A stretch of 64,000 bases of DNA from the human T2T-CHM13v2.0 reference genome, Homo sapiens. A model generated the notes under the pieces. That model worked only from the letters and a program-made list of their open reading frames with translations. It ran no database searches and was not told the DNA's origin. This document shows positions 33,401 to 64,000 of this stretch, one piece after another; positions within the stretch are counted from its first letter, which is position 1; each line of letters opens with the position of its first letter. A program made the position numbers and the translations under genes. The DNA lies in the NCBI GenBank assembly GCA_009914755.4, contig CP086569.2, positions 29,408,001 to 29,472,000 on the forward strand, in the 5' to 3' direction.

Positions 33401-33990
33401 TATGAAATGGAATGGAATGGAATGGAATGCCCTTGAATTAAATGGACTGGAATGGAATGGACTCGAACAGAGTGGAATGGAAAGTGTTGAAATAGAATGG
33501 AATGGACTCCTTTGGAATGGTGTAGTATGCAATGCAATCGACAGGCAGGGAATCAAAAGGAATGTAATCGAATGGATTGGACTGGAATGCAATGGACTCA
33601 AATAGATTGGAAACGGAATGCAAAGGAATGGAATGGAATAGTATGGAATGGAATGGAAAGGAATGGAGTGGAATAGACTAGAGTGGAATGGAATGGACTA
33701 GAAAGCAATGGACTGGAATGGAACTTTCTTGAATGGACTGGAATCAAACGGAATGGAATGCAATGCAATCAAATGGCATGGAATAAAATAGAATGAAAGA
33801 GAATCAAATGGAATTGAATCGAATGGAATCGAATGGATTGGAAAGGAATAGAATGGAATGGAATGGAATTGACTCAAATGGAATGGACTAGAATGGAATG
33901 GATTCGAATGGAAGGCAAAGGAATGGAATCTATTGGAATGGACTGTAATGGAATGGAATGGAAGGGATTGGAATGGACTCGAATGGAATG
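30428..33990. repeat. HOR unit 10, full length (3563 bp)
   Basis: Contains the complete offset 600–1310 region. Near-identical to unit 12. Confidence 0.85.
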
Positions 33991-36825: not shown

Positions 36826-39800
36826 GACTGCAATAGAAAGGATTCGAATGGAATGAAAAAGAATTGAATGGAATAGAACACAATGGAATCAAATCGAATG
36901 AAATGGAATGGAATAGAAAGGAATGGAATGAAATGGAATGGAAAGGATTCGAATGGAATGCATTCGAATGGAATGGAATCGAACGGAATGGAATAAAATG
37001 GAAGAAAACTGGCAAGAAATGGAATCGAAATGAATGCAGTGTTATGGAACGGACTCAAAAGGAATTGAATGTAATAGAATGGAGTGGAGTGGACTCGAAT
37101 ATAATGGACTGGAAGGGAATGAAATCACATGGAATGGGAACGAATGGAATGGAATGGAAAGGAATGGAATCGAATGGAAAGGAATCGAATGGAAGGGAAT
37201 GAAATTGAATCAACAGGAATGGAAGGGAATAGAATAGACGGTAATGGAATGGACTCGAATAGAATGGACACGAATGCTCAAATTGAATGGACTCGAATGG
37301 AATGGAAACGAAAGGAATGTCATCGAATGGAATTGAATCGATTGGAATGAAATCGCATAGAATGGAGTGGAATCAAATGGATTTGAATCGAAAGGAAAGG
37401 AAGCGAATGGACTGAAATGAAATGGAATGGAATTGAATGGAAAGTAATGCAATGGAATAGAATGGAACGAAATTTCACGGAATGGAATCAAACTGAATGG
37501 AATCAAATCAATGGAATCAAATCAAATGGAATGGAAAGGAATTGAATGGAGTAGATTGGATTGGATGGGATTGGAATGAAATGTACTGGAAAGGACTCGA
37601 ATTTCATGAAACGGAATGGAATGAATTGGAACGGAAGGGACTCGAATGGAATGGAATGTCATGGAATGGCATCAAATGGAATGACATCAAATGGAATGGA
37701 ATCGAATACAATGGAATGTTATGGAATGGAATGGAATGCATTGGAATGGAATGTCCTCTAATGGAATGGATTCGAGTGGAATGGAATCGAATATAATGGA
37801 GTCGAATGAAATGGAATTGAAAGGAATGGGATCGAATAGAATGGAATATACTGGAATGTAATGTAATGAACTGGAATGTAATTGACTGGAATGGAATGTA
37901 GATGAATGGAATGTAATCGAATGGAAAGTAATCCAATGGAATAGAATCTAATGCAATAAAACCGACTCAGATAGAGTAGAATGTAATGGAATGGAGTGCA
38001 GTGCAATGGAATGGAATGGAATTGAATGGAATGGAATGGAATGGAATGGAATGGAATGGAATGGGATGGAATGGTATGGAATGGATAGTAATGGACTGGA
38101 GTGAAATGGACTGGAAAGGAATGGACTCAAATTGAAAGGGCTCGAAAGGAATGGAGTCAAATGGAATGGTCTGGAATGGAATGAACACGAATGTAATGCA
38201 ATCCAATAGAATGGAATCGAATGGCATGGAATATAAAGAAATGGAATCGAAGAGAATGGAAACAAATGGAATGGAATTGAATGGAATGGAATTGAATGGA
38301 ATGGGAACGAATGGAGTGAAATTGTATGCAGTAGAAGGGAATAGAATGGAATGCAAGCGAAAGGAAAGGAATGGATTGGAATGGAATGGAATTCATTGGA
38401 ATGGAAGGGAATGTAGTGTAATGCACAGGCCTGGAATAAAGTGGAATGCTACGGTCTCGAATGGAATAAAAATGTATGGAATGGAATGCAATGAAACGGA
38501 ATCGAATGTCATAGAATGTAATGGAATGCAACAAAATGGAATCCAAAATCATTGACTGGAAAGGCTGGGTGTCGAAAGGAATTGACTCCAATGGAATGGA
38601 ATCGAATGGAATGGAAGTGAATAGAATCGAACTAAATCGAAAGGAATGGAATTGATAGGAACGGAATGGAAAGGAATGCAATGATTTGGCATGGGATGGA
38701 ATCGAATGGCATCGAATGGAATGGAATGGAATGGAATGGAATGGAATGGAATATAATGGAATGTATTAGAATGTAATGAACATTAATGGAATGTACTCTA
38801 ATGGATTCGACTGTAATGGAATGTTCTGGAAGTGAATGGACTCCAATGGAATGGATTCGAAAGGAATGGAATCGAACGGAATGGATTCTAATGGAATGGA
38901 ATGAAATGGAAATGAATCAAATTGAATAGCACGGAATTGAATTGAATGGAATCGAATGCAATGGAATCTAATGAAACGGAAAGGAAAGGAATGGAATGGA
39001 ATGGAATGGGCTGGAATGGAATGGAATGGAAACGAATGGAATGGAATCGAACTGAAGAGACTGGAATGGAATGCACTGGAACGGAAGGGAGTGTAATGGA
39101 AGGTTCTCGAGAAAATGGAATCGAATGGAATGGAATTGAATAGAACGGAATAGAGTCGAATGGAATTCAATGGAATGGAATGGACTAGAATGAAATGGAA
39201 TCGAACCACAAGGAATGGACAGGAATAGAATGGTCTCGAATTGAATGGAATCGTATGGAATGGCATCAAACGGAATGGAATGGACAGCCACGGAATGGAA
39301 TGCACTCGAATGCAATGGAGTCGAAACTAATGGACTGGAATAGAATGGACTCGACTGGTACGGACTCCAATGTAATGGAATCGAATGGAAGGGAATCGAA
39401 CGGAATGGACTCGAAGGGAAAAGACTGCAACGGAAAGGTCTCGAATGGAATGGAAATTAATGGAATGGAATGGAATCGAATGAAATGGAGTCAAAAGGAA
39501 TGGAATCGAATGGCAAGAAATCGAATGTAATGGAATCGCAAGGAATTGTTGTGAACGGAACGGAATGGAATGGAATCCAAAGGAATGGAATAGAATGGAA
39601 TGGAATCGAATGGAAAGGACTCGAATGGAAATCACTCGAATAGAATGCAATTTAATAAAATAGGATCAAATGTAATGGAATGGAATGGAAAGGAATCGAA
39701 ACGAAAGGAATGGAGACAGATGGAATGGAATGGAACAGAGAGCAATGGTATAGAATGGAATGGAATCCTCTGGAATGGAATTGAATGGAATGGAATAATA

Positions 39801-40388
39801 TGAAATGGAATGGAATGGAATGGAATGCCCTTGAATTAAATGGACTGGAATGGAATGGACTCGAACAGAGTGGAATGGAAAGTGTTGAAATAGAATGGAA
39901 TGGACTCCTTTGGAATGGTGTAGTATGCAATGCAATCGACAGGCAGGGAATCAAAAGGAATGTAATCGAATGGATTGGACTGGAATGCAATGGACTCAAA
40001 TAGATTGGAAACGGAATGCAAAGGAATGGAATGGAATAGTATGGAATGGAATGGAAAGGAATGGAGTGGAATAGACTAGAGTGGAATGGAATGGACTGGA
40101 AAGCAATGGACTGGAATGGAACTTTCTTGAATGGACTGGAATCAAACGGAATGGAATGCAATGCAATCAAATGGCATGGAATAAAATAGAATGAAAGAGA
40201 ATCAAATGGAATTGAATCGAATGGAATCGAATGGATTGGAAAGGAATAGAATGGAATGGAATGGAATTGACTCAAATGGAATGGACTAGAATGGAATGGA
40301 TTCGAATGGAAGGCAAAGGAATGGAATCTATTGGAATGGACTGTAATGGAATGGAATGGAAGGGATTGGAATGGACTCGAATGGAATG
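36826..40388. repeat. HOR unit 12, full length (3563 bp), near-identical copy of unit 10
   Basis: ORFs 38151.. and 38766.. are identical to 31753.. and 32368... Confidence 0.85.
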
Positions 40389-43300
40389 GACTGCAATAGA
40401 AAGGATTCGAATGGAATGAAAAAGAATTGAATGGAATAGAACAGAATGGAATCAAATCGAATGAAATGGAATGGAATAGAAAGGAATGGAATGAAATGGA
40501 ATGGAAAGGATTCGAATGGAATGCTATCGAATGGAATGCAATCGAACGGAATGGAATCGAACAGAATGGAATAAAATGGAAGAAAACTGGCAAGAAATGG
40601 AATCGAAATGAATGGAGTGTTATGGAACGGACTCCAAAGGAATTGAATGTAATAGAATGGAGTGGAGTGGACTCGAATATAATGGACTGGAATGGAATGA
40701 AATCACATGGAATGGGAACGAATGGAATGGAATGGAAAGGAATGGAATCGAATGGAAAGGAATCGAATGGAAGGGAATGAAATTGAATCAACGGAATGGA
40801 AGGGAGTAGAATAGACGGTAATTGAATGGACTCGAATAGAATGGACAGGAATGCTCAAATTGAATGGACTCGAATGGAAAGGAAACGAAAGGAATGTCAT
40901 CGAATGGAATTGATTCGATTGGAATGAAATGACATAAAAAGGAGTGGAATGACATGGAATTGAATCGAAAGGAAAGGAAGCGAATGAACTGAAATGAAAT
41001 GGAAAGGAATTGAATGGAAAGTAATGCAATGGAATAGAATGGAACGAAATTTCACGGAATGGAATCAAACTGAATGGAATCAAATCAATGGAATATAATC
41101 AAATGGAATGGAAAGGAATTGAATGGAGTAGATGGGATTGGATGGGATTGGAATGAAATGTACTGGAAAGGACTCGAATTTCATGAAACGGAATGGAATG
41201 AATTGGAACGGAATGGACTCGAATGGAATGGAATGTCATGGGATGGCAACAAATGGAATGGCATCAAATGGAATGGAATCGAATGCAATGGAATGCTATG
41301 GAATGGAATGGAATGCATTGGAATGGAATGTCCTCTAATGGAATGGATTCGAGTGGAATGGAATCGAATATAATGGAGTCGAATGAAATGGAATTGAAAG
41401 GAATGGGATCGAATACAATGGAATATACTGCAATGTAACGTAATGAACTCGAATGTAATCGACTGGAATGGAATATACATGAATCGAATGTAATCGAATG
41501 GAAAGTAATCCAATGGAATAGAATCTAATGCAATAAAATCGACTCAAATAGAATAGAATGTAATGGAATGGAGTGCAGTGCAATGGAATGGAATGGAATG
41601 GAATGCAATGGAATGGAATGGAATGGAATGGAATGGCATGGAATGGTATGGAATGGATAGTAATGGACTGGAGTGAAATGGACTGGAAAGGAATGGACTC
41701 AAATTGAAAGGGCTCGAAAGGAATGGAGTCAAATGGAATGGTCCGGAATGGAATGAACACGAATGTAATGCAATCCAATAGAATGGAATCGAATGGCATG
41801 GAATATAAAGAAATGGAATCGAAGAGAATGGAAACAAATGGAATGGAATTGAATGGAATGGAATTGAATGGAATGGGAACGAATGGAGTGAAATTGTATG
41901 CAGTAGAAGAGAATAGAATGGAATGCAAGCGAAAGGAAAGGAATGGATTGGAATGGAATGGAATTCATTGGAATGGAAGGGAATGTAGTGTAATGGACAG
42001 GCCTGGAATAAAGTGGAATGCTACGGTCTCGAATGGAATAAAAATGTATGGAATGGAATGCAATGAAACGGAATCGAATGTCATAGAATGTAATGGAATG
42101 CAAAAAAATGGACTCCAAAATCATTGACTGGAAAGGCTGGGTGTCGAAAGGAATTGACTCCAATGGAATGGAATCGAATGGAATGGAAGTGAATAGAATC
42201 GAACTAAATCGAATGGAATGGAATGGATAAGAACGGAATGGAAAGGAATGCAATGATTTGGCATGGAATGGAATCGAATGTCATGGAATGGAATGGAATG
42301 GAATGCAATGGAGTGGAATGTATTAGAATGTAATGAACTTTAATGGAATGTACTCGAATGGATTCGACTGGAATGGAATGTTCTGTAAGTAAATAGACTC
42401 CAATGGAATGGATTCGAAAGGAATGGAATCGAACGGAATGGAATCTAATGGAATGGAATTAAATGGAAATGAATCAAATTGAATAGCACGGAATTGAATT
42501 GAATGGAATCGAAAGCAATGGAATCTAATGTAACGGAAAGGAAAGGAATGGAATGGAATGGAATGGGCTGGAATGGAATGGAATCGAAACGAATGGAATG
42601 GAATCGAACTGAAGAGACTGGAATGGAATGCACTGGAATGGAAGGGAGTGTAATGGAAGGTTCTCGACAAAAATGGAATCGAATGGAGTGGAATTGAATG
42701 GAACGGAATAGAGTCGAATGGAATTGAATGGAATGGAATGGACTAGAGTGAAATGGAATCGAACCACAAGGAATGGACAGGAATAGAATGGTCTCGAATT
42801 GAATGGAATCGTATGGAATGGCATCAAACGGAATGGAATGGACAGCCACGGAATGGAATGCACTCGAATGCAATGGAGTCGAAACTAATGGACTGGAATA
42901 GAATGGACTCGACTGGTACGGACTCCAATGGAATGGAATCGAATGGAAGGGAATCGAACGGAATGGACTCGAAGGGAAAAGACTGCAATGGAAAGGTATC
43001 GAATGGAATGGAAATTAATGGAATGGAATGGAATCGAATGAAATGGAGTCAAAAGGAATGGAATCGAATGGCAAGAAATCGAATGTAATGGAATCGCAAG
43101 GAATTGATGTGAACAGAACGGAATGGAATGGAATCCAAAGGAATGGAATAGAATGGAATGGAATCGAATGGAAAGGACTCGAATGGAAATCACTCGAATA
43201 GAATGCAATTTAATAAAATAGGATCAAATGTAATGGAATGGAATGGAAAGGAATCGAAACGAAAGGAATGGAGACAGATGGAATGGAATGGAACAGAGAG

Positions 43301-47475: not shown

Positions 47476-50400
47476 CACTGCAATAGAAAGGATGCGAATG
47501 GAATGAAAAAGAATTGAATGGAATAGAACAGAATGGAATCAAATCGCATGAAATGGAATGGAATAGAAAGGAATGGAATGAAATGGAATGGAAAGGATTC
47601 GAATGGAATGCAATCGAATGCAATGGAATCGAACGGAATGGAATAAAATGGAAGAAAACTGGCAAGAAATGGAATCGAAATGAATGGAGTGTTATGGAAC
47701 GGACTCAAAAGGAATTGAATGTAATAGAATGCAGTGGAGTGGACTCGAATATACTGGACTGGAATGGAATGAAATCACATGGAATAGTAACGAATGGAAT
47801 GGAATGGAAAGGAATGGAATCGAATGGAAAGGAATCGAATGGAAGGGAATGAAATTGAATCAACAGGAATGGAAGGGAATAGAATAGACGGTAATGGAAT
47901 GGACTCGAATAGAATGGACACGAATGCTCAAATTGAATGGACTCGAATGGAATGGAAACGAAAGGAATGTCATCGAATGGAATTGAATCGATTGGAATGA
48001 AATCGCATAGAATGGAGTGGAATCAAATGGAATTGAATCGAAAGGAAAGGAAGCGAATGGACTGAAATGAAATGGAATGGAATTGAATGGAAAGTAATGC
48101 AATGGAATAGAATGGAACGAAATTTCACGGAATGGAATCAAACTGAATGGAATCAAATCAATGGAATCAAATCAAATGGAATGGAAAGGAATTGAATGGA
48201 GTAGATTGGATTGGATGGGATTGGAATGAAATGTACTGGAAAGGACTCGAATTTCATGAAACGGAATGGAATGAATTGGAACGGAATGGACTCGAATGGA
48301 ATGGAATGTCATGGAATGTCATCAAATGGAATGGCATCAAATGGAATGGAATCGAATGCAATGGAATGCTATGGAATGGAATGGAATGCATTGGAATGGA
48401 ATGTCCTCTAATGGAATGGATTCGAGTGGAATGGAATCGAATATAATGGAGTCGAATGAAATGGAATTGAAAGGAATGGGATCGAATACAATGGAATATA
48501 CTGGAATGTAATGTAATGAACTCGAATGTAATTGACTGGAATGGAATGTACATGAATGGAATGTAATCAAATGGAAAGTAATCCAATGGAATAGAATCTA
48601 ATGCAATAAAATCGACTCAAATAGAATAGAATGTAATGGAATGGAGTGCAGTGCAATGGAATGGAATGGAATGGAATGCAATGGAATGGAATGTAATGGA
48701 ATGGAATGGAATGGGATGGAATGGTATGGAATGGATAGTAATGGACTGGAGTGAAATGCACTGGAAAGGAATGGACTCAAATTGAAAGGGCTCGAAAGGA
48801 ATGGAGTCAAATGGAATGGTCTGGAATGGAATGAACACGAATGTAATGCAATCCAATAGAATGGAATCGAATGGCATGGAATATAAAGAAATGGAATCGA
48901 AGAGAATGGAAACAAATGGAATGGAATTGAATGGAATGGAATTGAATGGAATGGGAAGGAATGGAGTGAAATTGTATGCAGTAGAAGAGAATAGAATGGA
49001 ATGCAAGCGAAAGGAAAGGAATGGATTGGAATGGAATGGAATTCATTGGAATGGAAGGGAATGTAGTGTAGTGGACAGGCCTGGAATAAAGTGGAATGCT
49101 ACGGTCTCGAATGGAATAAAAATGTATGGAATGGAATGCAATGAAACGGAATCGAATGTCATAGAATCTAATGGAATGCAAAAAAATGGAATCCAAAAAC
49201 ATTGACTGGAAAGGCTGGGTGTCGAAAGGAATTGACTCCAATGGAATGGAATCGAATGGAATGGAAGTGAATAGAATCGAACTAAATCGAATGGAATGGA
49301 ATTGATAGGAACGGAATGGAAAGGAATGCAATGATTTGGCATGGAATGGAATCGAATGGCATCGAATGGAATGGAATGGAATGCAATGGAATGGAATGTA
49401 TTAGAATGTAATGAACTATAATGCAATGTACTCGAATGGATTCGACTGGCATGGAATGTTCTGGAAGTGAATGGACTCCAATGGAATGGATTCAAAAGGA
49501 ATGGAATCGTACGGAATGGAATCTAAAGGAATGGAATTAAATGGAAATGAATCAAATTGAATAGCACGGAATTGAATTGAATGGAATCGAATGCAATGGA
49601 ATCTAATGAAACGGAAAGGAAAGGAATGGAATGGAATGGAATGGGCTGGAATGGAAAGGAATCGAAACGAATGGAATTGAATCGAACTGAAGAGACTGGA
49701 ATGGAATGCACTGGAATGGAAGGGAGTGTAATGGAAGGTTCTCGACAAAAATGGAATCGAATGGAATGGAATTGAATGGAACGGAATAGAGTGGAATGGA
49801 ATTGAATGGAATGGAATGGACTAGAGTGAAATGGAATCGAACCACAAGGAATGGACAGGAATAGAATGGTCTCGAATTGAATGGAATCGTATGGAATGGC
49901 ATCAAACGGAATGGAATGGACAGCCACGGAATGGAATGCACTCGAATGCAATGGAGTCGAAACTAATGGACTGGAATAGAATGGACACGACTGGTACGGA
50001 CTCCAATGGAATGGAATCGAATGGAAGGGAATCGAACGGAATGGACTCGAAGGGAAAAGACTGCAATGGAAAGGTCTCGAATGGAATGGAAATTAATGGA
50101 ATGGAATGGAATCGAATGAAATGGAGTCAAAAGGAATGGAATGGAATGGCAAGAAATCAAATGTAATGGAATCGCAAGGAATTGAGGTGAACGGAACGGA
50201 ATGGAATGGAATCCAAAGGAATGGAATAGAATGGAATGGAATCGAATGGAAAGGACTCGAATGGAAATCACTCGAATAGAATGCAATTTAATAAAATAGG
50301 ATCAAATGTAATGGAATGGAATGGAAAGGAATCGAAACGAAAGGAATGGAGACAGATGGAATGGAATGGAACAGAGAGCAATGGTATAGAATGGAATGGA

Positions 50401-51024
50401 ATCATCTGGAATGGAATTGAATGGAATGGAATAATATGAAATGGAATGGAATGGAATGCAATGTCCTTGAATTAAATGGACTGGAATGGAATGGACTCGA
50501 AGAGAGTGGAATGGAAAGTGTTGAAATAGAATGGAATGGACTCCTTTGGAATGGTCTAGTATGCAATGCAATCGACTGGCAGGGAATCAAAAGGAATGTA
50601 ATGGAATGGATTGGACTGGAATGCAATGGACTCGAATAGATTGGAAACGGAAAGCAAAGGAATGGAATGGAATAGTATGGAATGGAATGGAAAGGAAAGG
50701 AGTGGAATAGACTAGAGTGGAATGGAATGGTCTCGAAAGCAATGGACTGGAATGGAACTTTCTTGAATGGACTGGAATCAAACGGAATGGAATGCAATGC
50801 AATCAAATGGCATGGAATAAAATAGAATGAAAGAGAATCAAATGGAATTGAATCGAATGGAATCGAATGGATTGGAAAGGAATAGAATGGAATGGAATGG
50901 AATTGACTCAAATGGAATGGACTAGAATGGAATGGATTCGAATGGAAGGCAAAGGAATGGAATCTATTGGAATGGACTGTAATGGAATGGAATGGAAGGG
51001 ATTGGAATGGACTCGAATGGAATG
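47476..51024. repeat. HOR unit 15, full length (3549 bp), near-identical to unit 14
   Basis: ORFs 48567.., 49043.. and 48801.. correspond to 45018.., 45494.. and 45252... Confidence 0.85.
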
Positions 51025-53868
51025 GACTGCAATAGAAAGGATTCGAATGGAATGAAAAAGAATTGAATGGAATAGAACAGAATGGAATGAAATCGAATGA
51101 AATTGAATGGAATAGAAAGGAATGGAAAGAAATGGAATGGAAAGGATTCGAATGGAATGCAATCGAATGGAATGGAATCGAACGGAATGGAATAAAATGG
51201 AAGAAAACTGGCAAGAAATGGAATCGAAATGAATGGAGTGTTATGGAACGGACTCAAAAGGAATTGAATGTAATAGAATGGAGTGGAGTGGACTCGAATA
51301 TAATGGACTGGAATGGAATGAAATCACATGGAATGGGAACGAATGGAAAGGAATGGAAAGGAATGGAATCGAATGGAAAGGAATCGAATGGAAGGGAATG
51401 AAATTGAATCAACAGGAATGGAAGGGAATAGAATAGACGGTAATGGAATGAACTCGAATAGAATGGACAAGAATGCTCAAATTGAATGGAATCGAATGGA
51501 ATGGAAACGAAAGTAATGTCATCGAATGGAATTGAATCGATTGGAATGAAATCGCATAGAATGGAGTGGAATCAAATGGAATTGAATCGAAAGCAAAGGA
51601 AGCGAATGGACTGAAATGAAATGGACTCAAATTGAAAGGGCTCGAAATGAATGGAGTCAAATGGAATGGTCTGGTATGGAATGAACACGAATGTAATGCA
51701 ATCCAATAGAATGGAATCGAATGGCATGGAATATAAAGAAATGGAATCGAAGAGAATGGAAACAAATGGAATGGAATTGAATGGAATGGAATTGAATGGA
51801 ATGGGAACGAATGGAGTGAAATTGTATGCAGTACAAGAGAATAGAATGGAATGCAAGCGAAAGGAAAGGAATGGATTGGAATGGAATGGAATTCATTGGA
51901 ATGGAAGGGAATGTAGTGTAATGGACAGGCCTGGAATAAACTGGAATGCTACGGTCTCGAATGGAATAAAAATGTATGGAATGGAATGCAATGAAACGGA
52001 ATCGAATGTCATAGAATGTAATGGAATGCAAAAAAATGGAATCCAAAATCATTGACTGGAAAGGCTGGGTGTCGAAAGAATTGACTCCAATGGAATGGAA
52101 TCGAATGGAATGGAAGTGAATAGAATCGAACTAAATCGAATGGAATGGAATTGATAGGAACGGAATGGAAAGGAATGCAATGATTTGGCATGGAATGGAA
52201 TCGAATGGCATCGAATGGAATGGTATGGAATGCAATGGAATGGAATGTATTAGAATGTAATGAACATTAATGGAATGTACTCGAATGGATTCGACTGGCA
52301 TGGAATGTTCTGGAAGTGAATGGAATCCAATGGAATGGATTCAAAAGGAATGGAATCGTACGGAATGGAATCTAATGGAATGGAATTAAATGGAAATGAA
52401 TCAAATTGAATAGCACGGAATTGAATTGAATGGAATCGAATGCAATGGAATCTAATGAAACGGAAAGGAAAGGAATGGAATGGAATGGGCTGGAATGGAA
52501 AGGAATCGAAACGAATGGAATGGAATCGAACTGAAGAGACTGGAATGGAATGCACTGGAATGGAAGGGACTGTAATGGAAGGTTCTCGACAAAAATGGAA
52601 TCGAATGGAATGGAATTGAATGGAACGGAATAGAGTGGAATGGAATTGAATGGAATGGAATGGACTAGAGTGAAATGGAATCGAACCACAAGGAATGGAC
52701 AGGAATAGAATGGTCTCGAATTGAATGGAATCGTATGGAATGGCATCAAACGGAATGGAATGGACAGCCACGGAATGGAATGCACTCGAATGCAATGGAG
52801 TCGAAACTAATGGACTGGAATAGAATGGACTCGACTGGTACGGACTCCAATGGAATGGAATCGAATGGAAGGGAATCGAACGGAATGGACTCGAAGGGAA
52901 AAGACTGCAATGGAAAGGTCTCGAATGGAATGGAAATTAATGGAATGGAATGGAATCGAATGAAATGGAGTCAAAAGGAATGGAATCGAATGGCAAGAAA
53001 TCGAATGTAATGGAATCGCAAGGAATTGATGTGAACGGAACGGAATGGAATGGAATCCAAAGGAATGGAATAGAATGGAATGGAATCGAATGGAAAGGAC
53101 TCGAATGGAAATCACTCGAATAGAATGCAATTTAATAAAATAGGATCAAATGTAATGGAATGGAATGGAAAGGAATCGAAACGAAAGGAATGGAGACAGA
53201 TGGAATGGAATGGAACAGAGAGCAATGGTATAGAATGGAATGGAATCATCTGGAATGGAATTGAATGGAATGGAATAATATGAAATGGAATGGAATGGAA
53301 TGGAATGTCCTTGAATTAAATGGACTGGAATGGAATGGACTCGAACAGAGTGGAATGGAAAGTGTTGAAATAGAATGGAATGGACTCCTTTGGAATGGTC
53401 TAGTATGCAATGCAATCGACTGGCAGGGAATCAAAAGGAATGTAATCGAATGGATTGGACTGGAATGCAATGGACTCGAATAGATTGGAAACGGAAAGCA
53501 AAGGAATGGAATGGAATAGTATGGAATGGAATGGAAAGGAATGGAGTGGAATAGACTAGAGTGGAATGGAATGGACTCGAAAGCAATGGACTGGAATGGA
53601 ACTTTCTTGAATGGACTGGAATCAAACGGAATGGAATGCAATGCAATCAAATGGCATGGAATAAAATAGAATGAAAGAGAATCAAATGGAATTGTATCGA
53701 ATGGAATCGAATGGATTGGAAAGGAATAGAATGGAATGGAATGGAATTGACTCAAATGGAATGGACTAGAATGGAATGGATTCGAATGGAAGGCAAAGGA
53801 ATGGAATCTATTGGAATGGACTGTAATGGAATGGAATGGAAGGGAGTGGAATGGACTCGAATGGAATG
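51025..53868. repeat. HOR unit 16, short variant (2844 bp)
   Basis: Fused ORF 51409..51765 spans the same deletion junction. Confidence 0.8.
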
Positions 53869-56703
53869 GACTGCAATAGAAAGGATTCGAATGGAATGAA
53901 AAAGAATTGAATGGAATAGAACAGAATGGAATCAAATCGAATGAAATGGAATGGAATAGAAAGGAATGGAATGAAATGGAATGGAAAGGATTCGAATGGA
54001 ATGCAATCGAATGGAATGGAATCGAACGGAATGGAATAAAATGGAAGAAAACTGGCAAGAAATGGAATCGAAATGAATGGAGTGTTATGGAACGGACTCA
54101 AAAGGAATTGAATGTAATAGAATGGAGTGGAGTGGACTCGAATATAATGGACTGGAATGGAATGAAATCACATGGAATGGGAACGAATGGAATGGAATGG
54201 AAAGGAAAGGAATCGAATGGAAGCGAATGAAATTGAATCAACAGGAATGGAAGGGAATAGAATAGACGGTAATGGAATGGACTCGAATAGAATGGACACG
54301 AATGTACAAATTGAATGGACTCGAATGGAATGGAAACGAAAGGAATGTCATCGAATGGAATTGAATCGATTGGAATGAAATCGCATAGAATGGAGTGGAG
54401 TCAAATGGAATTGAAACGAAAGCAAAGGAAGCGAATGGACTGAAATGAAATGGACTCAAATTGAAAGGGCTCGAAAGGAATGGAGTCAAATGGAATGGTC
54501 TGGAATGGAATGAACACGAATGTAATGCAATCCAATAGAATGGAATCGAATGGCATGGAATATAAAGAAATGGAATCGAAGAGAATGGAAACAAATGGAA
54601 TGGAATTGAATGGAATGGAATTGAATGGAATGGGAACGAATGGAGTGAAATTGCATGCAGTAGAAGAGAATAGAATGGAATACAAGCGAAAGGAAAGGAA
54701 TGGATTGGAATGGAATGGAATTCATTGGAATGGAAGGGAATGTAGTGTAATGGACAGGCCTGGAATAAAGTGGAATGCTACGGTCTCGAATGGAATAAAA
54801 ATGTATGGAATGGAATGCAATGAAACGGAATCGAATGTCATAGAATGTAATGGAATGCAAAAAAATGGAATCCAAAATCATTGACTGGAAAGGCTGGGTG
54901 TCGAAAGGAATTGACTCCAATGGAATGGAATCGAATCGAATGGAAGTGAATAGAATCGAACTAAATCGAATGGAATGGAATTGATAGGAACGGAATGGAA
55001 AGGAATGCAATGATTTGGCATGGAATGGAATCGAATGGCATCGAATGGAATGGAATGGAATGCAATGGAATGGAATGTATTAGAATGTAATGAACATTAA
55101 TGGAATGTACTCGAATGGATTCGACTGGCATGGAATGTTCTGGAAGTGAATGGAATCCAATGGAATGGATTCAAAAGGAATGGAATCGTACGGAATGGAA
55201 TCTAATGGAATGGAATTAAATGGAAATGAATCAAATTGAATAGCACGGAATTGAATTGAATGGAATCGAATGCAATGGAATCTAATGAAACGGAAAGGAA
55301 AGGAATGGAATGGAATGGAATTGGCTGGAATGGAAAGGAATCGAAACGAATGGAATGGAATCGAACTGAAGAGACTGGAATGGAATGCACTGGAATGGAA
55401 GGGAGTGTAATGGAAGGTTCTCGACAAAAATGGAATCGAATGGAATGGAATTGAATGGAACGGAATAGAGTCGAATGGAATTGAATGGAATGGAATGGAC
55501 TAGAGTGAAATGGAATCGAACCACAAGGAATGGACAGGAATAGAATGGTCTCGAATTGAATGGAATCGTATGGAATGGCATCAAACGGAATGGAATGGAC
55601 AGCCACGGAATGGAATGCACTCGAATGCAATGGAGACGAAACTAATGGACTGGAATAGAATGGACTCGACTGGTACGGACTCCAATGGAATGGAATCGAA
55701 TGGAAGGGAATCGAATGGAATGGACTCGAAGGGAAAAGACTGCAATGGAAAGGTATCGAATGGAATGGAAATTAATGGAATGGAATGGAATCGAATGAAA
55801 TGGAGTCAAAAGGAATGGAATCGAATGGCAAGAAATCGAATGTAATGGAATCGCAAGGAATTGATGTGAACGGAACGGAATGGAATGGAATCCAAAGGAA
55901 TGGAATAGAATGGAATGGAATCGAATGGAAAGGACTCGAATGGAAATCACTCGAATAGAAAGCAATTTAATAAAATAGGATCAAATGTAATGGAATGGAA
56001 TGGAAAGGAATCGAAACGAAAGGAATGGAGACAGATGGAATGGAATGGAACAGAGAGCAATGGTATAGAATGGAATGGAATCATCTGGAATGGAATTGAA
56101 TGGAATGGAATAATATGAAATGGAATGGAATGGAATGGAATGCCTTTGAATTAAATGGACTGGAATGGAATGGACTCGAACAGAGTGGAATGGAAAGTGA
56201 TGAGATAGAATGGAATGGACTCCTTTGGAATGGTGTAGTATGCAATGCAATCGACTGGCAGGGAATCAAAAGGAATGTAATCGAATGGATTGGACTGGAA
56301 TGCAATGGACTCGAATAGATTGGAAACGGAATGCAAAGGAATGGAATGGAATAGTATGGAATGGAATGGAAAGAAATGGAGTGGAACAGACTAGAGTGGA
56401 ATGGAATGGACTCGAAAGCAATGGACTGGAATGGAACTTTCTTGAATGGACTGGAATCAAACGGAATGGAATGCAATGCAATCAAATGGCATGGAATAAA
56501 ATAGAATGAAAGAGAATCAAATGGAATTGAATCGAATGGAATGGAATGGATTGGAAAGGAATAGAATGGAATGGAATGGAATTGACTCAAATGGAATGGA
56601 CTAGAATGGAATGGATTCGAATGGAAGGCAAAGGAATGGAATCTATTGGAATGGACTGTAATGGAATGGAATGGAAGGGATTGGAATGGACTCGAATGGA
56701 ATG
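53869..56703. repeat. HOR unit 17, short variant (2835 bp)
   Basis: Fused ORF 54238..54594. Confidence 0.8.
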
Positions 56704-59700
56704 GACTGCAATAGAAAGGATTCGAATGGAATGAAAAAGAATTGAATGGAATAGAACAGAATGGAATCAAATCGAATGAAATGGAATGGAATAGAAAGGA
56801 ATGGAATGAAATGGAATGGAAAGGATTCGAATGGAATGCAATCGAATGGAATGGAATCGAACGGAATGGAATAAAATGGAAGAAAACTGGCAAGAAATGG
56901 AATCGAAATGAATGGAGTGTTATGGAACGGACTCAAAAGGAATTGAATGTAATAGAATGGAGTGGAGTGGACTCGAATATAATGGACTGGAATGGAATGA
57001 AATCACATGGAATGGGAACGAATGGAATGGAATGGAAAGGAATGGAATCGAATGGAAAGGAATCGAATGGAAGGGAATGAAATTGAATCAACAGGAATGG
57101 AAGGGAATAGAATAGACGGTAATGGAATGGACTCGAATAGAATGGACACGAATGCTCAAATTGAATGGACTCGAATGGAATGGAAACGAAAGGAATGTCA
57201 TCGAATGGAATTGAATCGATTGGAATGAAATCGCATAGAATGGAGTGGAATCAAATGGAATTGAATCGAAAGCAAAGGAAGCGAATGGACTGAAATGAAA
57301 TGGACTCAAATTGAAAGGGCTCGAAAGTAATGGAGTCAAATGGAATGGTCTGGAATGGAGTGAACACGAATGTAATGCAATCCAATAGAATGGAATCGAA
57401 TGGCATGGAATATAAAGAAATGGAATGAAATGGAATGGAAAGGATTCGAAAGGAATGCAATCGAATGGAATGGAATCGAACGGAATGGAATAAAATGGAA
57501 GAAAACTGGCAAGAAATGCAATCGAAATGAATGGAGTGTTATGGAACGGACTCAAAAGGAATTGAATGTAATAGAATGGAGTGGAGTGGACTCGAATATA
57601 ATGGACTGGAATGGAATGAAATCACATGGAATGGGAACGAATGGAATGGAATGGAAAGGAATGGAATCGAATGGAAAGGAATCGAATGGAAGGGAATGAA
57701 ATTGAATCAACAGGAATGGAAGGGAATAGAATAGACGGTAATGGAATGGACTCGAATAGAATGGACACGAATGCTCAAATTGAATGGACTCGAATGGAAT
57801 GGAAACGAAAGGAATGTCATCGAATGGAATTGAATCGATTGGAATGAAATCGCATAGAATGGAGTGGAATCAAATGGAATTGAATCGAAAGCAAAGGAAG
57901 CGAATGGACTGAAATGAAATGGACTCAAATTGAAAGGGCTCGAAAGTAATGGAGTCAATGGAATGGTCTGGAATGGAGTGAACACGAATGTAATGCAATC
58001 CAATAGAATGGAATCGAATGGCATGGAATATAAAGAAATGGAATCAAAGAGAATGGAAACAAATGCAATGGAATTGAATGGAATGGAATTGAATGGAATG
58101 GGAACGAATGGAGTGAAATTGTATGCAGTAGAAGAGAATAGAATGGAATGCAAGCGAAAGGAAAGGAATGGATTGGAATGGAATGGAATTCATTGGAATG
58201 GAAGGGAATGTAGTGTAATGGACAGGCCTGGAATAAAGTGGAATGCTACGGTCTCGAATGGAATAAAAATGTATGGAATGGAATGCAATGAAACGGAATC
58301 GAATGTCATAGAATGTAATGGAATGCAAAAAAATGGAATCCAAAATCATTGACTGGAAAGGCTGGGTGTCGAAAGGAATTGACTCCAATGGAATGGAATC
58401 GAATGGAATGGAAGTGAATAGAATCGAACTAAATCGAATGGAATGGAATTGATAGGAACGGAATGGAAAGGAATGCAATGATTTGGCATGGAATGGAATC
58501 GAATGGCATCGAATGGAATGGAATGGAATGCAATGGAATGGAATGTATTAGAATGTAATGAACATTAATGGAATGTACTCGAATGGATTCGACTGGCATG
58601 GAATGTTCTGGAAGTGAATGGAATCCAATGGAATGGATTCAAAAGGAATGGAATCGTACGGAATGGAATCTAATGGAATGGAATTAAATGGAAATGAATC
58701 AAATTGAATAGCACGGAATTGAATTGAATGGAATCGAATGCAATGGAATCTAATGAAACGGAAAGGAAAGGAATGGAATGGAATGGGCTGGAATGGAAAG
58801 GAATCGAAACGAATGGAATGGAATCGAACTGAAGAGACTGGAATGGAATGCACTGGAATGGAAGGGAGTGTAATGGAAGGTTCTCGACAAAAATGGAATC
58901 GAATGGAATGGAATTGAATGGAACGGAATAGAGTGGAATGGAATTGAATGGAATGGAATGGACTAGAGTGAAATGGAATCGAACCACAAGGAATGGACAG
59001 GAATAGAATGGTCTCGAATTGAATGGAATCGTATGGAATGGCATCAAACGGAATGGAATGGACAGCCACGGAATGGAATGCACTCGAATGCAATGGAGTC
59101 GAAACTAATGGACTGGAATAGAATGGACTCGACTGGTACGGACTCCAATGGAATGGAATCGAATGGAAGGGAATCGAACGGAATGGACTCGAAGGGAAAA
59201 GACTGCAATGGAAAGGTCTCGAATGGAATGGAAATTAATGGAATGGAATGGAATCGAATGAAATGGAGTCAAAAGGAATGGAATCGAATGGCAAGAAATC
59301 GAATGTAATGGAATCGCAAGGAATTGATGTGAACGGAACGGAATGGAATGGAATCCAAAGGAATGGAATAGAATGGAATGGAATCGAATGGAAAGGACTC
59401 GAATGGAAATCACTCGAATAGAATGCAATTTAATAAAATAGGATCAAATGTAATGGAATGGAATGGAAAGGAATCGAAACGAAAGGAATGGAGACAGATG
59501 GAATGGAATGGAACAGAGAGCAATGGTATAGAATGGAATGGAATCATCTGGAATGGAATTGAATGGAATGGAATAATATGAAATGGAATGGAATGGAATG
59601 GAATGTCCTTGAATTAAATGGACTGGAATGGAATGGACTCGAACAGAGTGGAATGGAAAGTGTTGAAATAGAATGGAATGGACTCCTTTGGAATGGTCTA

Positions 59701-60141
59701 GTATGCAATGCAATCGACTGGCAGGGAATCAAAAGGAATGTAATCGAATGGATTGGACTGGAATGCAATGGACTCGAATAGATTGGAAACGGAAAGCAAA
59801 GGAATGGAATGGAATAGTATGGAATGGAATGGAAAGGAATGGAGTGGAATAGAATAGAGTGGAATGGAATGGACTCGAAAGCAATGGACTGTAATGGAAC
59901 TTTCTTGAATGGACTGGAATCAAACGGAATGGAATGCAATGCAATCAAATGGCATGGAATAAAATAGAATGAAAGAGAATCAAATGGAATTGAATCGAAT
60001 GGAATCGAATGGATTGGAAAGGAATAGAATGGAATGGAATGGAATTGACTCAAATGGAATGGACTAGAATGGAATGGATTCGAATGGAAGGCAAAGGAAT
60101 GGAATGGAATGGAAGGGATTGGAATGGACTCGAATGGAATG
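56704..60141. repeat. HOR unit 18 (3438 bp): a short variant carrying a 620-bp tandem duplication (56806–57425 repeated at 57426–58045) and a ~25-bp deletion near 60100
   Basis: The duplication junction at about 57425 reads 'aaagaaatggaat|gaaatggaatggaaaggattcgaa'. The deletion junction appears twice (about 57296 and about 57917), and the variant 'cgaaagtaatgg' is present in both copies. Confidence 0.75.
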
Positions 60142-62976
60142 GACTGCAATAGAAAGGATTCGAATGGAATGAAAAAGAATTGAATGGAATAGAACAGAAT
60201 GGAATCAAATCGAATGAAATGGAATGGAATAGAAAGGAATGGAATGAAATGGAATGGAAAGGATTCGAATGGAATGCAATCGAATGGAATGGAATCGAAC
60301 GGAATGGAATAAAATGGAAGAAAACTGGCAAGAAATGGAATCGAAATGAATGGAGTGTTATGGAACGGACTCAAAAGTAATTGAATGTAATAGAATGGAG
60401 TGGAGTGGACTCGAATATAATGGACTGGAATCGAATGAAATCACGTGGAATGGGAACGAATGGAATGGAATGGAAAGGAAAGTAATCGAATGGAAGGGAA
60501 TGAAATTGAATCAACAGGAATGGAAGGGAATAGAATAGACGGTAATGGAATGGACTCGAATAGAATGGACACGAATGCTCAAATTGAATGGACTCGAATG
60601 GAATGGAAACGAAAGGAATGTCATCGAATGGAATTGAATCGATTGGAATGAAATCGCATAGAATGGAGTGGAGTCAAATGGAATTGAAACGAAAGCAAAG
60701 GAAGCGAATGGACTGAAATGAAATGGACTCAAATTGAAAGGGCTCGAAAGGAATGGAGTCAAATGGAATGGTCTGGAATGGAATGAACATGAATGTAATG
60801 CAGTCCAATAGAATGGAATCGAATGGCATGGAATATAAAGAAATGGAATCGAAGAGAATGGAAACAAATGGAATGGAATTGAATGGAATGGAATTGAATG
60901 GAATGGGAACGAATGGAGTGAAATTGTATGCAGTAGAAGAGAATAGAATGGAATGCAAGCGAAAGGAAAGGAATGGATTGGAGTGGAATAGAATTCATTG
61001 GAATGGAAGAGAATGTAGTGTAATGGACAGGCCTGGAATAAAGTGGAATGCTACGGTCTCGAATGGAATAAAAATGTATGGAATGGAATGCAATGAAACG
61101 GAATCGAATGTCATAGAATGTAATGGAATGCAAAAAAATGGAATCCAAAATCATTGACTGGAAAGGCTGGGTGTCGAAAGGAATTGACTCCAATGGAATG
61201 GAATCGAATGGAATGGAAGTGAATAGAATCGAACTAAATCGAATGGAATGGAATTGATAGGAACGGAATGGAAAGGAATGCAATGATTTGGCATGGAATG
61301 GAATCGAATGGCATCGAATGGAATGGAATGGAATGCAATGGAATGGAATGTATTAGAATGTAATGAACATTAATGGAATGTACTCGAATGGATTCGACTG
61401 GCATGGAATGTTCTGGAAGTGAATGGAATCCAATGGAATGGATTCAAAAGGAATGGAATCGTACGGAATGGAATCTAATGGAATGGAATTAAATGGAAAT
61501 GAATCAAATTGAATAGCACGGAATTGAATTGAATGGAATCGAATGCAATGGAATCTAATGAAACGGAAAGGAAAGGAATGGAATGGAATGGAATGGGCTG
61601 GAATGGAAAGGAATCGAAACGAATGGAATGGAATCGAACTGAAGAGACTGGAATGGAATGCACTGGAATGGAAGGGAGTGTAATGGAAGGTTCTCGACAA
61701 AAATGGAATCGAATGGAATGGAATTGAATGGAACGGAATAGAGTCGAATGGAATTGAATGGAATGGAATGGACTAGAGTGAAATGGAATCGAACCACAAG
61801 GAATGGACAGGAATAGAATGGTCTCGAATTGAATGGAATCGTATGGAATGGCATCAAACGGAATGGAATGGACAGCCACGGAATGGAATGCACTCGAATG
61901 CAATGGAGACGAAACTAATGGACTGGAATAGAATGGACTCGACTGGTACGGACTCCAATGGAATGGAATCGAATGGAAGGGAATCGAATGGAATGGACTC
62001 GAAGGGAAAAGACTGCAATGGAAAGGTATCGAATGGAATGGAAATTAATGGAATGGAATGGAATCGAATGAAATGGAGTCAAAAGGAATGGAATCGAATG
62101 GCAAGAAATCGAATGTAATGGAATCGCAAGGAATTGATGTGAACGGAACGGAATGGAATGGAATCCAAAGGAATGGAATAGAATGGAATGGAATCGAATG
62201 GAAAGGACTCGAATGGAAATCACTCGAATAGAAAGCAATTTAATAAAATAGGATCAAATGGAATGGAATGGAATGGAAAGGAATCGAAACGAAAGGAATG
62301 GAGACAGATGGAATGGAATGGAACAGAGAGCAATGGTATAGAATGGAATGGAATCATCTGGAATGGAATTGAATGGAATGGAATAATATGAAATGGAATG
62401 GAATGGAATGGAATGCCTTTGAATTAAATGGACTGGAATGGAATGGACTCGAACAGAGTGGAATGGAAAGTGATGAGATAGAATGGAATGGACTCCTTTG
62501 GAATGGTGTAGTATGCAATGCAATCGACTGGCAGGGAATCAAAAGGAATGTAATCGAATGGATTGGACTGGAATGCAATGGACTCGAATAGATTGGAAAC
62601 GGAATGCAAAGGAATGGAATGGAATAGTATGGAATGGAATGGAAAGAAATGGAGTGGAACAGACTAGAGTGGAATGGAATGGACTCGAAAGCAATGGACT
62701 GGAATGGAACTTTCTTGAATGGACTGGAATCAAACGGAATGGAATGCAATGCAATCAAATGGCATGGAATAAAATAGAATGAAAGAGAATCAAATGGAAT
62801 TGAATCGAATGGAATGGAATGGATTGGAAAGGAATAGAATGGAATGGAATGGAATTGACTCAAATGGAATGGACTAGAATGGAATGGATTCGAATGGAAG
62901 GCAAAGGAATGGAATCTATTGGAATGGACTGTAATGGAATGGAATGGAAGGGATTGGAATGGACTCGAATGGAATG
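60142..62976. repeat. HOR unit 19, short variant (2835 bp), close copy of unit 17
   Basis: ORF 62483..62782 is identical to 56210..56509. The METK and NRKQFNK variants are shared. Confidence 0.8.
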
Positions 62977-64000
62977 GACTGCAATAGAAAGGATTCGAAT
63001 GGAATGAAAAAGAATTGAATGGAATAGAACAGAATGGAATCAAATCGAATGAAATGGAATGGAATAGAAAGGAATGGAATGAAATGGAATGGAAAGGATT
63101 CGAATGGAATGCAATCGAATGGAATGGAATCGAACGGAATGGAATAAAATGGAAGAAAACTGGCAAGAAATGGAATCGAAATGAATGGAGTGTTATGGAA
63201 CGGACTCAAAAGGAATTGAATGTAATAGAATGGAGTGGAGTGGACTCGAATATAATGGACTGGAATGGAATGAAATCACGTGGAATGGGAACGAATGGAA
63301 TGGAATGGAAAGGAAAGTAATCGAATGGAAGGGAATGAAATTGAATCAACAGGAATGGAAGGGAATAGAATAGACGGTAATGGAATGGACTCGAATAGAA
63401 TGGACACGAATGCTCAAATTGAATGGACTCGAATGGAATGGAAACGAAAGGAATGTCATCGAATGGAATTGAATCGATTGGAATGAAATCGCATAGAATG
63501 GAGTGGAGTCAAATGGAATTGAAACGAAAGCAAAGGAAGCGAATGGACTGAAATGAAATGGACTCAAATTGAAAGGGCTCGAAAGGAATGGAGTCAAATG
63601 GAATGGTCTGGAATGGAATGAACACGAATGTAATGCAATCCAATAGAATGGAATCGAATGGCATGGAATATAAAGAAATGGAATCGAAGAGAATGGAAAC
63701 AAATGGAATGGAATTGAATGGAATGGAATTGAATGGAATGGGAACGAATGGAGTGAAATTGTATGCAGTAGAAGAGAATAGAATGGAATGCAAGCGAAAG
63801 GAAAGGAATGGATTGGAATGGAATGGAATTCATTGGAATGGAAGAGAATGTAGTGTAATGGACAGGCCTGGAATAAAGTGGAATGCTACGGTCTCGAATG
63901 GAATAAAAATGTATGGAATGGAATGCAATGAAACGGAATCGAATGTCATAGAATGTAATGGAATGCAAAAAAATGGAATCCAAAATCATTGACTGGAAAG
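62977..64000. repeat. HOR unit 20, partial (truncated by the window end), short-variant type
   Basis: The unit landmark is at 62977 and the fused deletion-junction ORF is at 63346..63702. Confidence 0.75.

What the first reader, a model, noticed from the sequence alone, without database searches (positions are those of the whole stretch)
56806..58045. 620-bp tandem duplication nested inside a short unit, postdating the 710-bp deletion
The block 56806–57425 is repeated at 57426–58045, with a junction at about 57425 reading 'aaagaaatggaat|gaaatggaatggaaaggattcg'. Both copies contain the subfamily deletion junction (about 57296 and about 57917) and the private substitution 'cgaaagtaatgg'. The order of events is therefore deletion, then point mutation, then duplication. 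This is a clear example of layered rearrangement within one HOR unit.
Basis: seen in the sequence. Interest (0 to 1): 0.5.

Follow-up and report, generated by a model that had tools for sequence, protein, structure and literature searches.

The report
Small tandem duplication in Y-chromosome satellite
One repeat unit of the human Y-chromosome DYZ1 (HSat3) satellite carries a real but ordinary 619-bp head-to-tail duplication that arose after an older ~715-bp deletion, the kind of layered rearrangement that unequal exchange routinely produces in satellite arrays.

Summary
Copy 1 is 56808–57426 (619 bp) and copy 2 is 57427–58044 (618 bp). They lie head to tail with no spacer and differ at two substitutions and one 1-bp deletion (99.5% identity). 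The junction lies in an 8-bp AATGGAAT microhomology, and the junction string occurs once in the window. Both copies carry the deletion junction shared by all short units. Both also carry a G>T (57328/57947) found nowhere else in the 64 kb. All three copy-2 differences are unique to copy 2.

The order deletion, then G>T, then duplication, then copy-2 changes is the most parsimonious. One caveat: by raw distance copy 1 is closer to the blocks at 22002 and 24852 (1 mismatch each) than to copy 2 (3 differences). Immediate neighbours are much further (6–12 mismatches plus a 15-bp indel).

The window is human DYZ1/HSat3A6 (Yq12). The published HSat3A6 24-mer and DYZ1 primers match, and HaeIII units are about 3.55 kb. 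The most likely mechanism is one out-of-register sister-chromatid exchange or template switch. Read-level support could not be tested. This is an ordinary instance of a known process, so interest is low. One curiosity: five of six later private changes lie within 100 bp of a breakpoint.

The parts
56808..60245 (.). The repeat unit that carries the duplication. It is 3438 bp = 2819 bp short-type DYZ1 unit + 619 bp. The phase is defined by the anchor GGAAAGGATTCGAA minus 10.
   Evidence: Anchor spacing and unit table. The HaeIII fragment 54757→58225 is 3468 bp = 2849 + 619.
56808..57426 (.). Copy 1 of the duplicated block (619 bp). It equals the haplotype of blocks 22002 and 24852 plus the single G>T.
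57427..58044 (.). Copy 2 of the duplicated block (618 bp). It equals copy 1 plus three changes unique in the window: 57451 T>A, 57519 G>C, and a 1-bp A deletion after 57956.
57419..57426 (.). Duplication junction microhomology AATGGAAT. The same octamer ends the left flank (56800–56807) and copy 2 (58037–58044). The breakpoint is ambiguous within it.
   Evidence: The junction string is unique in the window.
57288..57308 (.). Deletion junction of the short-unit subfamily in copy 1: GACTGAAATGA|AATGGACTC. About 710–720 bp is lost relative to long units, roughly nt 310–1030 of the published DYZ1 unit.
57907..57927 (.). The same deletion junction in copy 2.
57328..57328 (.). Shared derived G>T (CGAAAGGAATGG→CGAAAGTAATGG) in copy 1.
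57947..57947 (.). The same G>T in copy 2.
58046..58066 (.). Two substitutions private to this unit, immediately 3' of the duplication: 58046 G>A (at a CpG) and 58066 G>C. All 18 other units are identical at these two positions and, apart from the divergent unit 10776, across the surrounding ~80 bp.
60097..60098 (.). Site of a 25-bp deletion private to this unit (AATGGAATCTATTGGAATGGACTGT lost). It is a further layer of rearrangement in the same unit.

Best explanation
The window is a stretch of the human Y-chromosome DYZ1 array (HSat3 subfamily A6, Yq12), read on the GGAAT strand. It mixes canonical ~3.55-kb units with a derived ~2.84-kb subfamily that lost about 715 bp. In one short unit of the 2844–2850-bp subtype, a 619-bp segment spanning the deletion junction was duplicated head to tail in a single event. 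The most likely event is an out-of-register (by 619 bp) sister-chromatid exchange or replication template switch. It resolved in an 8-bp AATGGAAT identity inside a ~25-bp stretch of 88% similarity.

The order of events is: deletion (subfamily-wide); G>T at the site now at 57328/57947; duplication; then two substitutions and a 1-bp deletion in copy 2. The structure is non-coding and has no inferred function beyond serving as a lineage marker of array evolution.

Shown directly: the two copies, the junction, the shared derived states, and the identity of the array. Inferred: the molecular mechanism and the timing.
For: Duplication anatomy and 99.5% identity. Unique junction, two-copy CGAAAGTAATGG, and deletion junction in all short blocks. 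Offset-619 signal confined to this locus, with background at most 0.655. Copy-2 alleles absent from all 19 other units. Variable-site table showing copy 1 = b22002/b24852 haplotype + T, and copy 2 = copy 1 + 3 changes.

The rest of the unit is closest to short units 24852 (0.6%) and 51129 (0.7%), the same subtype as the block.

Short units share CGAAAGCAAAGG and AAATGAATGG alleles with long units 14894 and 18453. This makes the short form a derived deletion rather than the long form an insertion.

In the junction register, flanking similarity is 90% over 20 bp and 80% over 40 bp upstream, falling to about 65% by 150 bp. This is a short homeologous patch, not long homology.

Array identity: the HSat3A6 24-mer from Altemose 2014 (PMC4022460) has 33 exact hits, against 0 for the 13 other subfamily 24-mers. 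DYZ1 primers C and D (PMC3925983) hit once per unit, and primer E hits only in the 11 long units; the positions are collinear with the published coordinates. HaeIII fragments are 3524–3584 bp, against published modal values of 3,569 and 3,564 bp.

Against: No reads or independent assemblies could be examined, so the structure rests on a single assembled sequence. The sister relationship of the copies rests on one shared derived base plus adjacency. By raw distance copy 1 is nearer to two blocks 32–35 kb away. The 8-bp microhomology says nothing about mechanism, because AATGGAAT occurs 2549 times in the window. The window covers only about 19 units of an array of thousands, so 'unique' and 'private' are local statements.
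Confidence: 0.8

Rival explanations
1. Assembly artefact. The assembler or polisher falsely inserted a second copy of the 619-bp block, or mis-joined reads from two units, so the source chromosome has a plain 2819–2845-bp short unit here.
For: No read evidence was available. Satellite arrays are the regions where residual assembly issues are reported; two ambiguous HSat positions were left in T2T-Y. One of the three inter-copy differences is a homopolymer-length change (AAA→AA). The unit's private point differences cluster near the block edges, which could also arise from consensus errors around a misassembly.
Against: The copies are not identical; two are clean substitutions. The junction is clean and in pentamer register. 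Modern T2T-class Y assemblies report no false duplication outside a few flagged sites, and base error below 1 per 10 Mb, although the source of this window is unknown. A 619-bp insertion is well within a single HiFi read, so it is hard to create spuriously.
Confidence: 0.07
2. Unequal crossover between two different short units rather than within one unit or between identical sisters. Copy 1 and what lies upstream derive from parent A. Copy 2 and the rest of the unit derive from parent B. The three inter-copy differences then predate the event.
For: All single-copy private changes of the unit (57451, 57519, 57957del, 58046, 58066, 59854 and the 25-bp deletion at 60097) lie on the 3' side of the junction. 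None lies in copy 1. This is what a chimaera of a 'clean' parent A and a more diverged parent B would look like.
Against: Both parents would need to carry the otherwise unseen G>T. None of the putative parent-B alleles is seen in any of the other 19 blocks or 18 units. Zero of 6 changes falling in the 619-bp copy 1 is expected about 30% of the time by chance (inference from lengths).
Confidence: 0.1
3. The order of events differs. The duplication came first, the G>T arose in one copy, and it was transferred to the other by short-tract gene conversion.
For: Gene conversion is active in Yq12. Six of 35 non-redundant de novo SNV events in Yq12 were classed as consistent with gene conversion in a pedigree study (10.64898/2026.06.03.729890).
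Against: It needs two events where one suffices. The other three differences between the copies, the nearest only 10 bp from the site (57957 vs 57947), were not homogenised.
Confidence: 0.08

Closest known systems
DYZ1 / HSat3A6 satellite of human Yq12 (3.56-kb HaeIII unit)
   Same: It is derived from the GGAAT/TTCCA pentamer. Units are about 3.55 kb, mostly with one HaeIII site each. The HSat3A6-specific 24-mer is present 33 times and the other subfamily markers are absent. Published DYZ1 primers match in the published order.
   Different: Eight of the 19 complete units in this window, plus a ninth partial unit at the window's end, are a ~2.84-kb deletion derivative. One unit is 4118 bp and one is 3438 bp. 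In the papers read, only 1–35-bp indels within units (PMC3925983) and very large multi-block duplications are described, not these sub-unit variants.
Structural variants of satellite repeat units generated by unequal exchange (for example variant higher-order repeats in alpha satellite, and iterative tandem duplications in Yq12)
   Same: It is a head-to-tail duplication with a clean junction inside a tandem array, followed by divergence of the copies. It is layered on an older deletion variant that has itself spread through the array.
   Different: The scale is sub-unit (619 bp of a 2.8-kb unit). The exchange point has only 8 bp of perfect identity, so it is homeologous or microhomology-mediated rather than in-register homologous exchange between whole units.
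Microhomology-mediated replicative duplications (FoSTeS/MMBIR), which in other human loci show extra point mutations near breakpoints (own knowledge: Carvalho et al. 2013, Nat Genet)
   Same: There is microhomology at the junction. Five of six post-duplication private point changes lie within 100 bp of a breakpoint.
   Different: There are no templated insertions or complexity at the junction. The microhomology is expected by chance in this satellite (2549 AATGGAAT sites). The clustering test is post hoc on six events.

Membership tests
Human DYZ1 / HSat3A6 | Built from diverged copies of the pentamer GGAAT (CATTC/TTCCA on the other strand) | tested here: met
   Tandem Repeats Finder gives 10- and 15-bp periods with consensus AATGGAATGG across 50005–63965. 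Strand-asymmetric composition is uniform over all 64 kb.
Human DYZ1 / HSat3A6 | Nested repeat unit of about 3.56–3.6 kb delimited by a HaeIII (GGCC) site | tested here: met
   Virtual HaeIII fragments are 3584, 3524, 3568, 3549 (×4), 3572 and 3529 bp, and one unit is 3569 bp by anchor. Published values are 3,564 bp, modal 3,569 bp and ~3.6 kb. Short (2829–2850 bp) and rearranged units also occur.
Human DYZ1 / HSat3A6 | Subfamily-specific 24-mer of Altemose et al. 2014 (TCGTTTCGATTCCTTTCCATTCCA) | tested here: met
   There are 33 exact matches on the minus strand. The 13 other HSat2/HSat3 subfamily 24-mers from the same table have 0 matches at up to 1 mismatch.
Human DYZ1 / HSat3A6 | Published DYZ1 PCR primers match in the published order | tested here: met
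   Primers C and D (PMC3925983) match exactly 19 times each. E matches exactly in all 11 long units. B matches within 2 mismatches in 10. Positions counted from the HaeIII site are 753–802, 846–900, ~1643–1720 and ~2534–2618, against published 763, 861, 1668 and 2564. Two 23-mers that I recall as the classical Y1.1/Y1.2 DYZ1 primers also match, giving 154 bp, but I could not verify them in the paper library.
Human DYZ1 / HSat3A6 | Location on Yq12, male-specific | not testable with these tools
   No human genome collection is available. Scans of metagenome, prokaryote-genome and viral collections returned nothing.
Simple tandem duplication | Two adjacent head-to-tail copies, no spacer, with a novel junction found nowhere else | tested here: met
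Simple tandem duplication | Copies share derived states absent from all homologous blocks | tested here: met
   There is one shared derived base (G>T at 57328/57947), absent from the 19 other blocks.
Simple tandem duplication | Copies are each other's nearest relatives by distance | tested here: not met
   Copy 1 differs from blocks 22002 and 24852 by 1 mismatch, and from copy 2 by 2 mismatches plus 1 indel. For copy 2 the nearest block is copy 1. The discrepancy is explained by three changes unique to copy 2.
Simple tandem duplication | Supported by reads or independent assemblies | not testable with these tools
   There is no read data. The junction is absent from all searchable collections, which evidently hold no DYZ1.
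Replicative microhomology-mediated duplication (FoSTeS/MMBIR) | Microhomology at the junction | tested here: inconclusive
   An 8-bp AATGGAAT is present, but the octamer occurs 2549 times in 64 kb, so it is expected under any mechanism.
Replicative microhomology-mediated duplication (FoSTeS/MMBIR) | Templated insertions or complex junctions | tested here: not met
   The junction is clean. Copy 2 starts exactly where copy 1's homologous sequence starts. The derived 15-mers around the private changes are unique in the window, so they were not copied from elsewhere in it.
Replicative microhomology-mediated duplication (FoSTeS/MMBIR) | Excess point mutations close to breakpoints | tested here: inconclusive
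   Five of 6 private post-duplication changes lie within 100 bp of a breakpoint. Simulated p is 3e-4 at w=100, 1e-3 at w=25 and 7e-3 at w=50. The window choice is post hoc and n = 6.

The most novel reading that the evidence does not exclude
The cluster of private point changes within 100 bp of the duplication's junction and right edge (57451, 57519, 57957del, 58046, 58066) may be a footprint of error-prone repair synthesis that accompanied the duplication. That would make this a natural example of mutagenic, replication-based (MMBIR-like) duplication in human Y heterochromatin. The alternative is clean unequal crossover followed by independent mutations.
Probability: 0.15. Interest if true: 0.35.

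Novelty: new member of a known kind. Interest (0 to 1): 0.1.

Why it matters
It matters little beyond bookkeeping. Sub-unit variants like this one are rare, unambiguous markers: a unique junction k-mer, a subfamily deletion junction and a private SNV. They could be used to trace how blocks of DYZ1 units expand, contract and move within Yq12 and between Y haplogroups, and to anchor reads in an otherwise hard-to-map array. The structure shows that sub-unit rearrangements accumulate on top of each other in single units: a deletion, an SNV, a 619-bp duplication and a 25-bp deletion. This fits the accepted model of satellite evolution by unequal exchange and does not challenge it.

Tried and rejected
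A gapped alignment fixed this.

(2) A first block-only MAFFT alignment suggested 7–11% divergence between short and long units. This was an alignment artefact around the deletion. Whole-unit alignment gives 0.9–2%, the same as long versus long. The idea that short and long units are deeply separate families was rejected.

(3) A whole-unit MAFFT alignment with copy 2 left in forced copy 2 onto the 710-bp segment of long units. It was redone with copy 2 removed.

(4) The repeat finder was swamped by the pentamer background and did not isolate the duplication.

(5) Exact-match scans for the duplication junction, the deletion junction and a generic DYZ1 marker returned nothing in metagenome, prokaryotic-genome and viral collections. 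These collections evidently hold no DYZ1, so the result says nothing either way.

(6) Literature searches for the two classical DYZ1 primers I recalled found nothing. Identity was established instead with published sequences from PMC4022460 and PMC3925983.

(7) I tested whether the near-breakpoint private alleles were copied from the misaligned partner or from elsewhere in the window. The derived 15-mers are unique in the window. By hand, in the junction register, only 58046 G>A matches the partner base, and it is also a CpG transition. Templated conversion was rejected.

(8) An Rfam scan of the whole window gave no match. No coding or RNA-gene reading was pursued, because the window is uniform satellite.

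Full report
**What the window is.** All 64 kb is one uninterrupted, strand-asymmetric (GGAAT)n-type satellite. GC is 0.38–0.40 and GC skew is about +0.55 throughout. Tandem Repeats Finder reports 10- and 15-bp periods with consensus AATGGAATGG.

Superimposed on this is a long periodicity. Exact 24-mer spacings peak at 3549 bp and at 2835/2850 bp. Using the anchor GGAAAGGATTCGAA, I cut the window into 19 complete units:
- 10 long units of 3518–3584 bp;
- 1 long-type rearranged unit of 4118 bp;
- 7 short units of 2835–2850 bp;
- the unit of interest, 56808–60245, at 3438 bp.

**Identity of the array.** The HSat3A6-specific 24-mer published by Altemose et al. 2014 (PMC4022460) occurs 33 times exactly on the minus strand. 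The 24-mers of the 13 other HSat2/HSat3 subfamilies in the same table do not occur even with one mismatch.

DYZ1 primers C and D of PMC3925983 match exactly 19 times each, about once per unit. Primer E matches exactly in each of the 11 long units and in no short unit. All fall at the published distances from the HaeIII site.

Virtual HaeIII digestion gives 3524–3584-bp fragments. Published values are 3,564 bp, a modal 3,569 bp (Hallast et al. preprint) and '~3.6 kb' (T2T-Y preprint).

The window is therefore human DYZ1/HSat3A6 from Yq12, read on the GGAAT strand. The chromosomal location itself could not be tested.

**Checking the observation.** An ungapped comparison at the stated coordinates fails. 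A gapped alignment anchored on the repeated sequence gives copy 1 = 56808–57426 (619 bp) and copy 2 = 57427–58044 (618 bp).

The copies differ at three positions:
- 56832 T versus 57451 A;
- 56900 G versus 57519 C;
- one A of an AAA run missing after 57956.

The quoted junction string occurs once in the window, at 57414. The breakpoint lies in the octamer AATGGAAT, which ends the left flank, copy 1 and copy 2 alike.

The signal is far above background. At offset 619, 600-bp identity peaks at 0.96 here and never exceeds 0.655 elsewhere. The 451 exact 30-mers at offset 619 all start at 56800–57310, followed by 59 at offset 618.

Only one other sub-unit duplication exists in the window, inside the 4118-bp unit.

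**The deletion.** All short-unit blocks and both copies carry the same junction GACTGAAATGA|AATGGACTC. In the two copies it is at about 57298/57299 and 57917/57918.

Relative to long units, about 710–720 bp is missing. This corresponds to roughly nt 310–1030 of the published DYZ1 unit, which explains why primer E is absent from short units.

The endpoints in long units are imperfect direct repeats of the form AATGGACTG(G)AAATGA(A)ATGGA.

Short units share the alleles CGAAAGCAAAGG and AAATGAATGG with long units 14894 and 18453 only. Over the whole unit, short and long units differ by no more than long units differ among themselves, at 0.9–2%. An early impression of 7–11% divergence was an alignment artefact.

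**The 'private' substitution and the order of events.** CGAAAGTAATGG occurs exactly twice, at 57322 and 57941. All 18 other aligned units have G at this position.

The variable-site table for the ten short-type blocks shows three things:
- blocks 22002 and 24852 are identical to each other;
- copy 1 equals that haplotype plus the G>T;
- copy 2 equals copy 1 plus three further changes.

Each of those three changes is absent from all other units.

The most parsimonious history is: deletion; G>T; duplication; three changes in copy 2.

Deletion before duplication is robust, because the alternative needs two identical deletions. G>T before duplication is parsimonious but rests on one site. A later mutation spread by gene conversion needs an extra event. 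It would also have had to leave unconverted the 1-bp difference only 10 bp away.

Against the adjacent short units (53973, 60246, 63081), the copies differ by 6–12 mismatches plus a 15-bp indel. Against each other they differ by 2 mismatches and 1 indel. The stated test is passed.

The copies are not each other's nearest relatives in the strict sense, however. Copy 1 is one mismatch from the blocks at 22002 and 24852, which lie 32–35 kb away.

The duplicated unit belongs to the 2844–2850-bp subtype of short units (22002, 24852, 51129). It is flanked by units of the 2835-bp subtype, which carry a 15-bp deletion. Over the rest of the unit its closest relatives are again 24852 (0.6%) and 51129 (0.7%).

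**Mechanism.** This part is inferred. Yq12 has no homologue to recombine with, so the event was intrachromosomal or between sister chromatids.

In the register of the junction, the two parental sequences are 90% identical over the 20 bp upstream, 80% over 40 bp, and about 65% (background) by 150 bp. Downstream they are 65–72% identical. The exchange therefore used a short homeologous patch with an 8-bp perfect core, not long homology.

This fits an out-of-register sister-chromatid exchange resolved by microhomology, or a replication template switch or slippage. The microhomology cannot discriminate between these, because AATGGAAT occurs 2549 times in the window.

The T2T-Y authors describe Yq12 rearrangements as consistent with unequal exchange. 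They observed sister-chromatid exchanges there in about 15% of Strand-seq libraries.

**Rough age.** This is an order-of-magnitude inference only. A pedigree study reported 35 non-redundant de novo SNV events over six transmissions in Yq12, whose mean length is about 27 Mb (10.64898/2026.06.03.729890). That gives roughly 2e-7 per bp per generation. At that rate, two substitutions over 2 × 619 bp correspond to thousands of generations, with a very wide Poisson range.

**A curiosity.** Apart from the shared G>T, the unit has six private single-copy point changes and a private 25-bp deletion at 60097/60098.

Five of the six point changes lie within 100 bp of the junction or the right edge of the duplication: 57451, 57519, 57957del, 58046 and 58066. 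Random placement gives p of about 3e-4 at 100 bp and 1e-3 to 7e-3 at other window sizes. The test is post hoc on six events.

At 58046 and 58066 themselves all 18 other units are identical, and across the surrounding ~80 bp only the divergent unit 10776 varies, at two other positions. The derived sequences are unique in the window, so they were not copied from elsewhere within it.

This could be a footprint of error-prone repair synthesis, chance, or consensus error near a difficult spot. I rate the first at about 0.15.

**Rivals.** An assembly artefact cannot be excluded without reads. It is unlikely for three reasons: the copies differ by clean substitutions, the junction is in register, and 619 bp lies well within single HiFi reads. 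T2T-class assemblies report no false duplication outside a few flagged sites, but the source assembly of this window is unknown.

A crossover between two different parental short units would explain why all single-copy private changes lie 3' of the junction. It requires both parents to carry the otherwise unseen T, and none of the putative parent-B alleles is seen elsewhere in the window.

**What led nowhere.**
- Scans of the metagenome, prokaryotic-genome and viral collections for the duplication junction, the deletion junction and a generic DYZ1 marker were all empty. This says only that those collections lack DYZ1.
- The repeat finder was swamped by the pentamer background.
- Rfam found nothing.
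- Two classical DYZ1 primers recalled from memory match once per unit with a 154-bp product. They could not be verified in the paper library and are not relied on.

**Verdict.** It is a genuine-looking, recent, sub-unit tandem duplication layered on an older subfamily deletion in human DYZ1. It is a new instance of a thoroughly known process, satellite evolution by unequal exchange. Interest is low. It has value mainly as a lineage marker, and possibly as one data point on mutation clustering at duplication breakpoints.

Noticed in passing
window 10776–14893: This is a 4118-bp DYZ1 unit. A ~700-bp segment (about 11925–12633) recurs 1719 bp downstream (about 13634–14350) and replaces about 170 bp of canonical sequence, for a net gain of 550 bp. 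It brings a second HaeIII site at 14013, giving fragments of 1719 + 2399 bp. This unit is also the most diverged in the window, at 3.4–4.1% with 84 private substitutions.
   Followed up: partly
window ~26400–34100 vs ~32800–40500: A two-unit (short + long) super-repeat of 6398 bp is duplicated almost perfectly, with 6 mismatches in 6398 bp. Per site it is younger than the 619-bp duplication.
   Followed up: partly
window 57451, 57519, 57957, 58046, 58066 (vs 59854): Five of the six post-duplication private point changes of the duplicated unit lie within 100 bp of the junction or right edge. Simulated p is about 3e-4, post hoc. They are not templated from elsewhere in the window.
   Followed up: partly
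window 60097/60098: The same unit has a private 25-bp deletion (AATGGAATCTATTGGAATGGACTGT) between AATGGAAT direct repeats. All 18 other units retain the segment.
   Followed up: yes
short units at 22002, 24852, 51129, 56808 vs 27697, 34095, 53973, 60246, 63081: The short units fall into two subtypes, separated by a 15-bp indel about 230 bp into the block (2844–2850 bp versus 2835 bp). The duplicated unit is of the first subtype but sits between units of the second.
   Followed up: yes
window ~19961 (unit 18453–22001): The HaeIII site expected in this unit is missing, giving a double-length 6389-bp virtual fragment. The recalled 23-mer primer site overlapping it is also absent.
   Followed up: no
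long units, e.g. 45110/45815, 1184/1904, 4753/5488, 31633/32318: Exact 30–41-bp matches spaced 685–735 bp apart recur inside long units. This hints at an older internal ~700-bp periodicity of the DYZ1 unit. They do not coincide with the endpoints of the short-unit deletion.
   Followed up: no
long units 14894–18452 and 18453–22001: These two long units alone share the alleles CGAAAGCAAAGG and AAATGAATGG with all short units. This marks the long-unit lineage from which the ~715-bp deletion arose.
   Followed up: partly
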